This document shows positions 3,001-6,000 of a DNA stretch of 64,000 nucleotides, in pieces; position 1 is the stretch's first letter; each line of letters starts with the position of its first letter. The stretch is taken from the NCBI RefSeq assembly GCF_056746865.1, contig NZ_JBWKMP010000005.1; one strand, given 5' to 3'. Position numbers: made by a program. Source of the DNA: a plasmid.

Positions 3001-6000
3001 TTGCCTGGTGTGTTGTTGCGCCCGTAGCTCGCTGACGCTCACACGCGCAGTACAGCGCCCCGCCCTGCTGCAATGCACCAGGACGGCGTAAACTCGCTGG
3101 CGCTCGCGCTAACTGCGGCATTCTGCGGCGCAAATCAGCATGATCATGGCCTGTCAGTCCGTTGGGCTTTGCAGGGTGAAGGGATGACCCTGTGCATCCT
3201 GGTATGTTCGTCAGCGGCTGCGCCGCGCTTCGGGGCGATGTGGCCCCGCTGCTCCCTGGTATTTCCTTTCGCCCCTTCTATCCGCTGACGCGGATTAAGA
3301 AATGAGCAAATCATCAAGTAAATTGCTGTTTTCAGGCAATAAATCTTGATAATACATCTAAATAGATGTATTATTATTTCATCGAAAGGGGATTGGCTCC
3401 TTTCCTTCTTAAGTCCAAACGGACAGGAGATTTAAAATGAAAACATTGACTTTTAATAACGGCACTGTTTCTGTTGGCGATGTGTTTGTATCTTCCTGGG
3501 GATATGAGCAAACGAACGTTAATTTCTACCAGGTTATTTCTGTTCATGGCAAAAAAACCGTAACTGTTCAGGAGATTCGCGCTTCAGTTCATCGGACTCA
3601 TTCAATGAGCGGATATAAGACCCCATTACTTAATGATTTCTGTGGTGAGCCATTAAAACGGCGAGTGCGTGATTATTACAGTACGCCAGCAATTGAAATT
3701 GAGGAATTCGAAACAGCATATAAAGGATCACCGGAAGAAAAACACGAGTTCACATCATACTACTAAGAAAATAGTTGCAGGGGGTATCCCCTGCAACCAT
3801 GTTAAAAATGTTAATAGTAGTAGTATTTACCCAGGGGGTTTTAGTATGAATGATGGGGTAAAACTCCGTCCTTCAGGGCGTGGAGAATGCCGGGCTAATG
3901 CAGCAATGTAATGTTGCGCCCGTAGCTCGCTGACGCTCACACACGCAGTACAGCGCCGCGCTTCGGGGCGATGTGGCCCCGCTGCTCCCTGGTATTTTCT
4001 TTCGCCCCTTCTATCCGCTGACGCGGATTAAGAAACGAGCAAATCATCAAGTAAATTGCTGTTTTCAGGAAATAAATCTTGATAATACATCTAAATAGAT
4101 GTATTATTGTTTCATCGAAAGGGGATTGGCTCCTTTCCTTCTTAAGTCCAAACGGACAGGAGATTTAAAATGAATATCCAGGAAGCATTAAACGTTTTTG
4201 GATTATCCGGCGAATTAACTGAAAAAGATATCAAAGCAGCATACAGAAAAGCCGCTTTAAAATATCATCCAGATCGTAACCCGTTAGGGGCTGAACTGAT
4301 GAAAGCGGTAAATGCAGCTTTTGATGTCTTGATGGCAAATATTGATAAAATAAATCAGTTCCAGAGCGCTGATGAACATGCACGATATAATTACGGTAAT
4401 GACCTGGAAAAAGTATTAAACGTTCTTTCTGGTTTATCTGGTCTGGTATTTGAAGTGATAGGTAACTGGGTATGGATTAGTGGAGAAACTATTACACATA
4501 AGGAAACTTTAAAAGAAATCGGGTGTAAATGGGCGGCAAAGAAAAAACAATGGTTTTATCGTCCAGACGAACATAAAAGTTACTGGAATCGTGAAGAACA
4601 CACGATAGAAGAAATCCGCGCAAAATACGGTACAACCGGACAGCGCAGGGCGACAGGGTGGCAACGCGTGGAAACCAGAGCGTAACCAGAACGGGGGCGA
4701 GAAGCCCCCGATATCATACCAGCCCGTCTTTTGGGGCATCGAACCCAAAAAGACGGGAACAGCAGCCACGTAGCAAAAAGGGAAACAGATGAACTCTTTT
4801 TTTGAACAATATCACCCTGTCTTTGAAGTTGTCTGCCGTATCCTGGGGAACGGCTGGCGCGTGAACAAACTTGATGATTGTCCGTCTCGTATAAAACTGA
4901 CGTCACCGCAGTTTAAAAATTACTCTGTGCATATTCGGATGGAAAAAGACCGATTTTCTGTTGTGGGGAGTGTGGATAGTCGTTCCTGGAGTAGTCCGTA
5001 TCATGTTTGTACGTTATCCAGGAAGCGGAATCCCGTTGATATAGCAGCCAATATCGAGCGAAAAATTTTGCTAAATGCTTCGCAGGAGGTGTTACAGGCG
5101 ATTGAGTATGAGAAACGCCAGGCGGCAAAAAAGGACGAAATTCTGATCCTGAAAGGTATGTTATCGCAACTTGTCCAGCTTGAAAGCTGGTATGGGGCAT
5201 TGACAGGCTTTAAAGCTGAAAATGGATTGAACGGTAAAGTCACCGAGCAGGGCGAGCGTTATGATTTGCAGATTAGGGGTTTGAGTATAGATCAACTTGT
5301 TAAAATTACAGGATATTTGAAACAGTTATGAGAAAAAACAAAGGGCGATTGACTTATTATCTTGAAGTGATTGATAAAAAATACCATTTTGTAAAAAAAA
5401 TAAGCAGTTATTCAAAGGAGTTCACTGACGGAAAAACAAAAAGAACAAAGAGAACGTTAAGTGAGCTGGTTTTTAATGAAAGTGAGGTCGAGGCAATAGA
5501 CTTTACAAAAAATGGTTTAAGACCTGTTGATAAGAATATTCTCTTAACTATGGTGAAAGAATATAAGGAGAGTGATGCATGACTATTGAAAATACACCGG
5601 AAAACATAAAGAAATTACGTAAAAAAATTGGCCTTACCCAGACAGAGTGCGGTGAGATTTTTGGCGTAGGCTTAAGTACATGGCAGAAAAAAGAAGCTAA
5701 AACCCACAACCAGCTTAATTTATCGAAAGGTGAATTTGAGTACCTGTTATTACTTGCAGGGGAGCACCCTGAATACGTCCTGCATAAAAAAGCTGAATCC
5801 CGCTCACCGGAGGAACCGTGAGCGAGAAGAAAAACACCACGACGCAGAAATCTAAGATATACAGTGTAAAGGTTTATTTGTCTTTACATTGTAATTGTTC
5901 TTTGTCTTTACACAGTGTGTGTTTGTAACAGGGCGACTTTACCCAGTGCGCCGTAAAGCCCCGTCCTTCAGGTCGGGGATATAAGGCGCGGTTTTCCACC

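What the first reader, a model, noticed from the sequence alone, without database searches (positions are those of the whole stretch)
4686..4788. Two strong hairpins in the intergenic region after the J-domain gene
The 103 bp between the J-domain gene and the next ORF contain gggggc-gagaa-gccccc and a 13-bp stem cccgtcttttggg-gcatcgaa-cccaaaaagacggg. Neither is followed by a clean T-run, so they may be processing, stability or attenuation elements rather than simple terminators.
Basis: seen in the sequence. Interest (0 to 1): 0.3.

Follow-up and report, generated by a model that had tools for sequence, protein, structure and literature searches.

The report
Conserved hairpins between two plasmid genes
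The two hairpins are real and conserved RNA-type stem-loops between two genes of an IncI2 resistance plasmid: the first is a terminator stem that lacks its U-tail here, the second is a rarer hairpin with an invariant loop, and together they are an ordinary kind of operon punctuation.

Summary
The window is an IncI2 mcr-1 plasmid, 100% identical to pVE362. Positions 4686-4788 are the spacer between a J-domain gene and an unknown 180-aa ORF, on the side of oriT that I infer enters the recipient first.

Both hairpins exist and fold far better than shuffled sequence (z = -4.9).
- H1 (4692-4710) is a 7-bp G/C stem with loop GAGAA.
- H2 (4723-4757) is not a perfect 13-bp stem. It is 10 bp, then a bulged A or G·A mismatch, then 3 bp.

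H1 sits 4-7 nt after the J-gene stop codon in 20 of 26 diverged lineages (IncX1/3/4/5, IncU, many Enterobacterales). Its stem covaries (5 of 7 pairs changed on both sides; 0 of 500 shuffles match). Its loop is GNRA on the sense strand in 18 of 26. A run of at least 4 T follows it in 9 of 26 lineages, but not here. So it is the orthologue of an intrinsic terminator without its U-tract.

H2 occurs only in IncI2, IncX4 and two other lineages. Its loop CAUCGAA and upper stem never change, and its lower stem changes by compensatory substitutions.

My best reading is that both are RNA elements of a polycistronic mRNA. H1 would be a leaky terminator or 3' stabiliser, and H2 a recognition or stability hairpin. 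The function is inferred, not shown. No Rfam, tRNA or phage match was found. Interest is low to moderate.

The parts
4079..4107 (+). Promoter-like site TTGATA-17-TATTAT, overlapped by a 26-bp palindrome. It is the likely start of the transcription unit that contains the hairpins.
   Evidence: 10 of 12 consensus matches. (palindrome I1-I3, repeated at 3349 and 8052).
4170..4685 (+). J-domain protein gene (171 aa). Its stop codon TAA is at 4683-4685.
   Evidence: Pfam DnaJ PF00226, 44.4 bits against a cut-off of 27.8. Annotated as a J domain-containing protein in pVE362.
4692..4710 (+). Hairpin 1: CGGGGGC-GAGAA-GCCCCCG, 7 G/C pairs, starting 6 nt after the stop codon. It is the orthologue of an intrinsic-terminator stem but has no U-tract here.
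   Evidence: dG -15.6. Conserved in 26 lineages. Covariation. Tails.
4711..4722 (+). A/U-rich single-stranded spacer ATATCATACCAG. Its last four bases, CCAG (4719-4722), are conserved in every lineage that has hairpin 2.
4723..4757 (+). Hairpin 2: CCCGTCTTTTGGGG-CATCGAA-CCCAAAAAGACGGG, 13 pairs plus one G·A mismatch (or a bulged A). The 7-nt loop is invariant.
   Evidence: dG -20.3. Homologues with compensatory lower-stem changes in L016, L052/L023 and L058/L064.
4758..4788 (+). Unstructured leader with the Shine-Dalgarno-like AAGGGA upstream of the ORF180 start. Compared with the Erwinia-type homologues, a third hairpin has been deleted here.
4789..5331 (+). ORF180, a conserved hypothetical protein and the next cistron. 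It is followed by ORF84 (5328-5582) and the Xre-type HTH ORF80 (5579-5821).

Best explanation
Both hairpins are RNA structures in the sense-strand transcript of a J-domain -> ORF180 -> ORF84 -> Xre-HTH operon. The operon lies on the inferred leading side of an IncI2 plasmid's oriT.

H1 is the conserved, GNRA-capped G/C stem that follows the J-gene stop codon in this whole gene family. In sister lineages it carries a U-tract and is a canonical intrinsic terminator. In the IncI2/IncX4 lineage the U-tract is absent. There it can at most pause or weakly terminate RNA polymerase. It would mainly serve as a 3'-exonuclease barrier for the J-gene segment, so the J-domain cistron is expressed more strongly than the genes behind it, while read-through still feeds those genes.

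H2 is a second, independently conserved hairpin retained only in some lineages. Its invariant loop CAUCGAA on an invariant upper stem looks like a recognition site for a protein or RNA partner. Alternatively, after cleavage in the A/U-rich spacer, it could act as a 5' stabiliser of the downstream message.

Shown: the structures exist, they are conserved, they covary, and the loop asymmetry points to the sense strand. Inferred: everything about termination efficiency, processing and partners.
For: Fold and significance.

H1 is present after the J-gene stop in all 26 distinct lineages with at least 58% J-protein identity, and it starts 4-7 nt from the stop in 20 of them.

H1 covariation on 18 sequences with 4-nt loops: 93.7% of cells paired, 5 of 7 pairs changed on both sides, 0 of 500 shuffles reach the score, and slid-partner controls are far lower.

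Loops read GNRA on the plus (mRNA-sense) strand in 18 of 26 lineages: GAAA 11, GCAA 4, GTAA 3. Variation is confined to the N position. The window lineages (3 of the 26 rows) have the GNR(N)A-like pentaloop GAGAA.

A T-run of at least 4 immediately 3' of the stem occurs on the plus strand in 9 of 26 lineages, against 3 of 26 on the minus strand. Internal G·U pairs occur on the plus strand in L019 and L020.

H2: the apex (3 G-C pairs, 4 U-A pairs and the loop) is invariant. The lower stem differs by 2-5 double-sided changes between the three lineage groups and is always paired. Within IncI2/IncX4, substitutions and indels fall in the spacers and none falls in H2.

In L058 the third hairpin keeps pairing through two plus-strand G·U pairs (GCUGGC with GUUAGC), which would be C·A mismatches on the other strand (reading).

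No promoter-like site lies between the J gene and ORF180.
Against: There are no transcript data, so termination, read-through and processing are all untested.

The palindromes fold equally well on the minus strand. Terminal wobble pairs give no clear strand signal.

H2 has only four distinct variants from three lineage groups, so its covariation sample is small. Its patchy distribution tracks neither the J nor the ORF180 phylogeny, which also fits a gained or lost accessory element.

The simple scan scored H1 as terminator-like on the minus strand (tail TTCTGGTT).

The region is on the inferred leading side of oriT, where hairpins in single-stranded DNA are known to matter.
Confidence: 0.55

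Rival explanations
1. H2 is a relic or passenger palindromic element of the REP, MITE or IS200/IS605-end type. It landed in, or recombined into, this spacer and persists without a role in the operon.
For: Its distribution among J-gene lineages is patchy and does not follow the J or ORF180 trees.

A metagenome scan for the H2 apex found the same GGG-CATCGAA-CCC apex on long stems of unrelated sequence. These include hairpins about 50 nt upstream of tnpB genes (L046, L059), one next to a RAYT-like gene (L066), and T-shaped giant palindromes (L049, L062).

The window itself carries two IS200/IS605 copies.
Against: There is a single copy in the 64-kb window. In 72,556 plasmids it occurs only at this locus.

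The flanks (CCAG on the 5' side, GCCAC on the 3' side) are homologous between lineages. Compensatory changes imply long-term selection on pairing.

The end hairpins of the resident IS are a different family (D7).

The metagenome hits were selected by a pattern that already forces a 6-7 bp stem, and no permuted-loop control could be run at that scale.
Confidence: 0.15
2. The hairpins act in single-stranded DNA of the transferred strand as a primase-dependent priming signal (a G4-type ssi) for complementary-strand synthesis in the recipient.
For: The region lies about 9 kb from the inferred oriT, on the side opposite the relaxase operon. Its genes point towards oriT, so the minus strand would be both the transferred strand and the template strand (inference).

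The phage G4 complementary-strand origin is also a set of hairpins in an intergenic spacer just after a stop codon. Its stem-loop I is GGACGGC-GAAA-GCCGCCGTCC followed by CTG. That is the same GCGAAAGC apex as H1 of most lineages.

On the minus strand, CTG follows H2 directly in all H2 variants, and follows H1 after 3 nt in the window.

The DNA fold of the minus strand has z = -5.1.
Against: The special GAAA/GNRA loop is on the plus strand. On the inferred transferred strand it reads TTTC.

The CTG after H1 is not conserved (CCGG in IncX3 and IncU). The fixed 4-7 nt distance from a stop codon and the U-tracts in sister lineages point to transcription.

There is no BLAST similarity to any phage, including G4-like origins.

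The transferred-strand assignment itself is an inference from gene order.
Confidence: 0.1
3. H1 is a terminator or insulator for minus-strand (antisense) transcription, or a bidirectional terminator. It would protect the J gene from transcription entering from the neighbouring sequence.
For: The consensus scan reports H1 as terminator-like on the minus strand only (stem 4710-4692, tail TTCTGGTTAC). The hairpin after ORF109 (3800-3771) behaves the same way. In L022 the stem has A-runs and T-runs on both sides.
Against: No minus-strand promoter-like site was found in 3300-6000.

Across lineages, T-runs of at least 4 are three times commoner on the plus side (9 against 3 of 26). Part of the minus-strand T content is forced by the complement of the stop codon. 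GNRA loops are on the plus strand.
Confidence: 0.08
4. The palindromes are double-stranded DNA operators for a dimeric regulator, for example the Xre-type ORF80 of the same operon.
For: Both are inverted repeats. The operon encodes an HTH protein. The upper part of H2 is sequence-invariant.
Against: The lower stem of H2 and the stem of H1 change sequence while keeping intrastrand complementarity, which an operator does not require.

The obvious operator of this region is the 26-bp palindrome over the promoter, which is repeated three times.

The H2 centre, CATCGAA, is not palindromic.
Confidence: 0.04

Closest known systems
Rho-independent (intrinsic) terminators with GNRA-capped G/C stems
   Same: H1 is a short G/C-rich stem with a GNRA-type loop just downstream of a stop codon. 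Orthologous hairpins in 9 of 26 related lineages carry the expected T-run.
   Different: In the window the 8 nt after the stem are ATATCATA, with no U-tract. The next cistron starts 78 nt downstream of the stem with no promoter-like site in between. Efficient termination is therefore unlikely and would silence the rest of the operon.
Intercistronic stabiliser or processing hairpins in polycistronic mRNAs (for example the REP hairpins between malE and malF, or papB-papA processing; from established knowledge)
   Same: There are stable stem-loops without U-tracts between two co-directional cistrons. Two hairpins flank a short A/U-rich single-stranded segment. The expected outcome is differential expression of the upstream and downstream genes.
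   Different: These are not REP sequences. They are single-copy and specific to this locus. No processing or stability data exist for them.
Phage G4 complementary-strand origin (G-site, primase-dependent ssi)
   Same: It is a cluster of hairpins in an intergenic spacer after a stop codon. Stem-loop I has the same GCGAAAGC apex as H1 of most lineages, with a nearby CTG.
   Different: In G4 the GAAA loop is on the packaged single strand. Here it would be on the strand that is not transferred. There is no sequence similarity beyond the apex, and the CTG next to H1 is not conserved.
tRNA T-arm / acceptor-T minihelix
   Same: Read on the minus strand, the H2 apex is GGG-TTCGATG-CCC. This fits the T-loop consensus G53-T54-T55-C56-R57-A58-N-N-C61 on a roughly 13-bp stem, about the length of an acceptor-T minihelix (reading; consensus from established knowledge).
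   Different: ARAGORN finds no tRNA or tmRNA. There is no 3' CCA. There is no evidence that the minus strand is transcribed.

Membership tests
Intrinsic (Rho-independent) terminator | G/C-rich stem-loop of 5-14 bp with a short loop | tested here: met
   H1 has 7 G/C pairs and a 5-nt loop, dG -15.6.
Intrinsic (Rho-independent) terminator | U-tract (about 5 or more U in the 8 nt directly 3' of the stem) | tested here: not met
   The plus-strand tail of H1 is ATATCATA (3 T, longest run 1). The H2 tail is AACAGCAG. The scan gives no plus-strand terminator here.
Intrinsic (Rho-independent) terminator | Orthologous hairpins in relatives carry a U-tract (shared descent with true terminators) | tested here: met
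   9 of 26 lineages have a T-run of at least 4 right after the homologous stem, for example L014 TTTTCTGA, L022 ATTTTTGT, L039 TTTTTGTT.
Conserved structured RNA element (selection on pairing) | Compensatory base changes that keep the helix | tested here: met
   H1: 5 of 7 pairs changed on both sides, 93.7% paired, 0 of 500 shuffles. H2: 2-5 double-sided changes between lineage groups, all paired. The H2 sample is only 4 variants.
Conserved structured RNA element (selection on pairing) | Strand asymmetry that identifies the functional strand | tested here: inconclusive
   Pointing to the plus strand: GNRA loops in 18 of 26 lineages, internal G·U pairs in L019/L020, and two G·U pairs in the L058 third hairpin. 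Terminal wobble pairs occur on both strands.
G4-type ssi (primase-dependent priming signal) | Hairpins on the single-stranded template with a 5'-CTG-3' start site just 3' of a hairpin | tested here: inconclusive
   On the minus strand, CTG directly follows H2 in all 4 variants. It lies 3 nt after H1 in the window but is absent after H1 in IncX3, IncU and others.
G4-type ssi (primase-dependent priming signal) | Sequence relatedness to known G sites | tested here: not met
   No blastn match to 50,697 phage records at E up to 10. Only the 8-nt apex GCGAAAGC is shared with G4 stem-loop I, and it is on the opposite strand sense.
G4-type ssi (primase-dependent priming signal) | Origin-independent priming activity | not testable with these tools
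   This needs an M13-delta-ori rescue assay or an in vitro DnaG/SSB assay.
Frpo-type single-stranded DNA promoter | Long imperfect hairpin (roughly 100 nt or more) that rebuilds -35 and -10 boxes in its stem | tested here: not met
   The hairpins are 19 and 35 nt with no hexamers. The upstream repeat 3880-4175 also does not fold into one long hairpin.
REP / IS200-IS605 end hairpins | Multiple dispersed copies, or a position at the end of an element next to a Y1 transposase gene | tested here: not met
   There is one copy in the window at up to 3 mismatches. In PLSDB it occurs only at this locus. The resident IS ends have a different hairpin (D7).
Any curated RNA family (Rfam 15) | A covariance-model match | tested here: not met
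   No hit overlaps 4686-4788 even at E up to 10.
tRNA-like element | Cloverleaf or tmRNA detected, or a T-arm with an acceptor end | tested here: not met
   ARAGORN finds nothing in 4000-5500. Only the T-loop consensus on the minus strand matches.

The most novel reading that the evidence does not exclude
The H2 apex (GGG-CAUCGAA-CCC, which reads as a T-loop-like GGG-UUCGAUG-CCC on the other strand) may mark an undescribed and widespread class of long hairpins. A common protein or a loop-loop (UCGA) kissing interaction would recognise them.

The same apex caps unrelated stems between co-directional genes, upstream of tnpB genes, next to a RAYT-like gene, and inside T-shaped giant palindromes. 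In those palindromes the two inner loops are mutually complementary. On this reading, H2 would be a plasmid-borne member that gives the J-domain operon a specific post-transcriptional or single-stranded-DNA control point.
Probability: 0.08. Interest if true: 0.6.

Novelty: new member of a known kind. Interest (0 to 1): 0.27.

Why it matters
The J-domain operon is shared by the main mcr-1 and blaNDM vehicles: IncI2, IncX4, IncX3 and IncX1. Counting by J-protein tblastn matches at 80% identity or more, this is about 1,870 of the 72,556 plasmids in PLSDB. The operon sits on the side of oriT that is inferred to enter a new host first. Knowing how its cistrons are punctuated would help explain the dosage of these early plasmid genes.

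In itself the finding is a routine piece of operon architecture: a terminator stem without its tail, plus an accessory hairpin. The only part that could grow into something larger is the invariant H2 loop and its recurrence on unrelated hairpins.

Tried and rejected
- Rfam at E up to 10 over 2900-6000: nothing at the hairpins.
- ARAGORN on the window and on eight metagenome loci: no tRNA or tmRNA.
- blastn of 4680-4775 against phages: no match.
- blastn of H2 against plasmids: only the same locus, plus weak short matches of E 0.1 or above that I take to be chance.
- IMG/VR pattern scans for the H2 apex, for two permuted-loop controls, and for GCCAGC...apex. The first three gave 0 hits and the last gave only GC-rich chance hits. 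The intended enrichment control was therefore uninformative.
- MAFFT alignments that mixed loop lengths (A2, A3) misaligned the stems and were dropped. I used an equal-length set instead (A4).
- A6 could not be used for an automated H2 pair count, because a 1-nt indel shifts the register. The pairs were read by hand.
- A crude plus-versus-minus longest-stem comparison was inconclusive (6 against 8 lineages).
- Folding the 296-nt upstream repeat as minus-strand DNA did not give an Frpo-like long hairpin.
- Literature searches on IncI2/IncX leading regions, ssi signals and plasmid transcriptomes found nothing about these hairpins.
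Full report
**What the window is.** Positions 4100-5400 are 100% identical to E. 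coli plasmid pVE362 (NZ_AP018355.1: IncI2, MOBP, mcr-1). At least 80% of this stretch is found in 765 plasmids. The finding lies between a 171-aa J-domain gene (4170-4685; Pfam DnaJ 44.4 bits) and a conserved hypothetical ORF of 180 aa (4789-5331). Two small ORFs follow, the last an Xre-type HTH. All are on the plus strand.

A promoter-like TTGATA-17-TATTAT site lies at 4079-4107, under a 26-bp palindrome. No promoter-like site lies between the J gene and ORF180.

The mobC-relaxase operon lies at about 13.9-18.5 kb on the plus strand. A divergent operon containing traL lies on the other side of a gap at about 13518-13887, which is where oriT should be. By analogy with MOBP plasmids, where the relaxase enters last (established knowledge), the J operon is on the leading side. 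The minus strand would then be the transferred strand and the template for these genes. This is an inference, not a result.

**Check of the observation.** The sequences and coordinates are correct.
- H1 is CGGGGGC-GAGAA-GCCCCCG (4692-4710), 7 bp, dG -15.6.
It is 10 bp + bulged A + 3 bp. In the register of its homologues, it is 13 pairs with one G·A mismatch around the 7-nt loop CAUCGAA, dG -20.3.

The region folds at -42.3 kcal/mol against -27.6 +/- 3.0 for shuffles (z = -4.94). H2 is among the few strongest local folds in the 64 kb. Neither hairpin is followed by a T-run on the plus strand.

**Hairpin 1 in relatives.** I collected the J gene and its downstream spacer from several sources:
- IncX4, IncX1, IncX5, IncX3 and IncU-type plasmids;
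- further plasmids;
- 22 genome contigs of Providencia, Mixta, Erwinia, Sodalis, Pantoea, Serratia, Xenorhabdus and others;
- metagenome contigs.

In all 26 distinct lineages whose J protein is at least 58% identical, a G/C-rich hairpin follows the stop codon. It starts 4-7 nt after the stop in 20 of them. On 18 sequences with 4-nt loops:
- 93.7% of cells are paired;
- 5 of 7 pairs show changes on both sides (for example GGGGGC/GCCCCC against AGCGGGG/CCCCGCT and AAGGCGGG/CCCGCCTT);
- no shuffle out of 500 reaches the observed covariation, and slid-partner controls collapse.

The loop is GNRA on the plus strand in 18 of 26 lineages (GAAA, GCAA, GTAA). Only the free N position varies. The window lineages have GAGAA.

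A run of at least 4 T follows the stem on the plus strand in 9 lineages, which makes those hairpins textbook intrinsic terminators. The minus strand shows this in only 3. H1 is therefore the orthologue of the J gene's terminator. In the IncI2/IncX4 lineage (tail ATATCATA) it has the stem without the U-tract.

**Hairpin 2 in relatives.** H2 is absent from IncX1, X3, X5, IncU and most genome contigs. It is present, at the same place after H1, in three groups:
- IncI2, IncX4 and a related metagenome variant (L045);
- Candidatus Erwinia dacicola (L016, L023) and L052;
- L058 and L064.

Across these groups the loop CAUCGAA, three G-C pairs and four U-A pairs never change. The 5-6 lower pairs differ by 2-5 double-sided substitutions and always stay paired. 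The three lower stems are CCCGUC/GACGGG, CCCUG/CAGGG and CAAUCC/GGAUUG. RNAalifold recovers both helices on the six sequences.

CCAG directly 5' of H2 is conserved. In the Erwinia-type spacers a third hairpin follows. In L058 that hairpin keeps pairing through two plus-strand G·U pairs. It is deleted in the window.

The presence of H2 follows neither the J nor the ORF180 identity ranking. It has therefore been lost several times or moved by recombination. Within IncI2/IncX4, the substitutions seen fall in the spacers and not in H2.

**Where else the H2 apex occurs.** In PLSDB, H2 is found only at this locus, and it occurs once in the window. A metagenome scan for TTTNGGGCATCGAACCCNAAA returned three kinds of hit:
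- the J-gene contexts;
- four chance matches inside rpsB;
- eight unrelated non-coding families in which the stem continues well beyond the pattern.

The unrelated families include hairpins between co-directional genes (L073, L051), hairpins about 50 nt upstream of tnpB genes (L046, L059), one next to a RAYT-like gene (L066), and T-shaped giant palindromes. In those palindromes the two inner 7-nt loops, YTCGATG and CATCGAA, are mutually complementary (L049, L062).

I could not run a permuted-loop control at that scale, and the smaller viral collection gave zero hits for both pattern and controls. This recurrence therefore stays an unexplained lead. On the minus strand the apex reads GGG-TTCGATG-CCC, the tRNA T-loop consensus. 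ARAGORN finds no tRNA-like gene, and no minus-strand promoter-like site was seen.

**Mechanism.** The most economical reading is that both are RNA structures in the polycistronic sense transcript. The evidence for the sense strand is:
- the GNRA loops;
- the plus-strand U-tracts in sister lineages;
- the fixed short distance from the stop codon;
- the plus-strand G·U pairs.

Without a U-tract, H1 should terminate poorly. Its likely effect is pausing or leaky termination, plus protection of the J-gene segment against 3' exonucleases. That would give more J-domain message than downstream message. Its 5' arm starts 6 nt after the stop codon, within reach of a terminating ribosome, so translation of the J gene may also modulate it (inference).

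H2 has an invariant loop and upper stem above a freely covarying lower stem. That pattern looks like a recognition hairpin. Together with H1 it brackets an A/U-rich 12-nt spacer, the classical layout of a processing site flanked by a 3' protective and a 5' protective hairpin (established knowledge of intercistronic processing; not tested here).

**Rivals.**
- *Priming signal in single-stranded DNA.* The leading-side position suggests this. So does a real resemblance to the phage G4 complementary-strand origin: hairpins after a stop codon, and stem-loop I with the apex GCGAAAGC followed by CTG. However, the stable GAAA loop would be on the strand that is not transferred, the CTG next to H1 is not conserved, and there is no wider similarity.
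- *Minus-strand terminator.* The scan flagged H1 this way. It lacks a promoter and has weaker comparative support.
- *Double-stranded DNA operator.* This does not explain compensatory changes.
- *Passenger palindromic element.* For H2 this fits the patchy distribution and the tnpB and RAYT neighbours of look-alike hairpins. It does not fit the single-copy status, the homologous flanks or the covariation.

**Comparison with known families and verdict.** H1 works like, and descends from, an intrinsic terminator, but it fails the U-tract criterion in this plasmid. I do not file it as a functional canonical terminator. Neither hairpin matches Rfam, tRNA, Frpo, REP or G-site definitions (see the membership table). 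No paper in the searchable library mentions these hairpins.

The finding is real and conserved, and it is a new example of a known kind of feature. Interest is low to moderate. The only potentially larger point is the invariant H2 loop.

Noticed in passing
window 1225-2972 and 5939-7686 (approximate ends): Two identical copies of an IS200/IS605-family element (tnpA + tnpB) bracket the J operon. Both are inserted at the same relative position of a repeated native module. Plasmids such as p14EC029a lack them at these positions. A weak Rfam HgcC hit at 2900-2989 lies at the tnpB 3' end.
   Followed up: partly
window 3165-3442, 3898-4175, 7868-8145: A 278-nt repeat occurs three times, upstream of ORF109, the J gene and ORF97. 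Each copy carries the promoter-like TTGATA-17-TATTAT overlapped by the 26-bp palindrome ATAATACATCTAAATAGATGTATTAT. This suggests one shared operator controlling three operons. Folded as minus-strand DNA, it does not form an Frpo-like long hairpin.
   Followed up: partly
window 386-404, 1102-1217, 5846-5916, 8726-8770, 10081-10254, 10626-10696: A family of TTTACAnTGTAAAG-type inverted repeats is scattered through the region on the leading side of oriT (families D3, D8, D9 and D12). They look like operators or iterons.
   Followed up: no
window 3771-3800: Another strong hairpin (TAGTTGCAGGGG-GTAT-CCCCTGCAACCA) sits directly after the ORF109 stop codon. It too has no plus-strand T-run but has a T-rich tail on the minus strand. 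A weak Rfam tpke11 hit overlaps it.
   Followed up: no
window 3858-3884 and 3948-3974: Solo hairpins resemble the end hairpins of the resident IS (D7 family, CCGTCCTTCAGGGCGTGG) and lie between ORF109 and the J promoter. They could be an IS-end relic or a preferred target.
   Followed up: no
L008 (IncX3) 3294-3589: IncX3 plasmids have an extra 78-aa ORF inserted between H1 and the ORF180 homologue. A canonical terminator (GCCGTAA-TTCGA-TTTACGGC-TTTTTT) follows it, only about 25 nt before the next start codon. The downstream genes there must depend on read-through or antitermination.
   Followed up: no
L049 ~1245-1480, L062 ~9555-9790, L066 ~2530-2680, L047 ~520-690: Metagenome contigs carry T-shaped giant palindromes (dG down to about -150 kcal/mol). 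An outer stem of up to about 45 bp encloses two inner hairpins whose 7-nt loops are mutually complementary (YTCGATG or CTCGATA against CATCGAA). In L062 the palindrome lies between convergent genes whose products resemble FtsK and a TonB-dependent receptor. In L066 it follows DnaE-like and RAYT-like genes. These protein names are my reading of the translations, not a search result.
   Followed up: partly
L009/L038 1553-1642 and 1326-1415; L037 1317-1391: In IncU-type relatives the spacer after H1 contains tandem (ACAAATAA)x4 or (CAAA)n repeats. CCGG...CCGG pairing encloses H1.
   Followed up: no
window 5579-5821: The Xre-type HTH ORF80, at the end of this operon, may be the IncI2 regulator EcaR of PMC12612032. 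That paper describes a 252-bp fragment encoding an XRE-family regulator that co-occurs with mcr-1 on IncI2 and IncX4. I could not verify sequence identity. A promoter-like site at 5527-5554 lies just upstream of ORF80.
   Followed up: partly
L016, L052, L058 downstream of H2 (columns ~90-120 of alignment A7): A third hairpin, GCUGC-AUUG-GCUGGC-UUC-GCCAGC-GCAGC, follows H2. Its 5' arm GCUGGC could alternatively pair with the conserved GCCAGC just upstream of H2 and so enclose H2. This is a possible alternative-structure switch. It is deleted in the window lineage.
   Followed up: no
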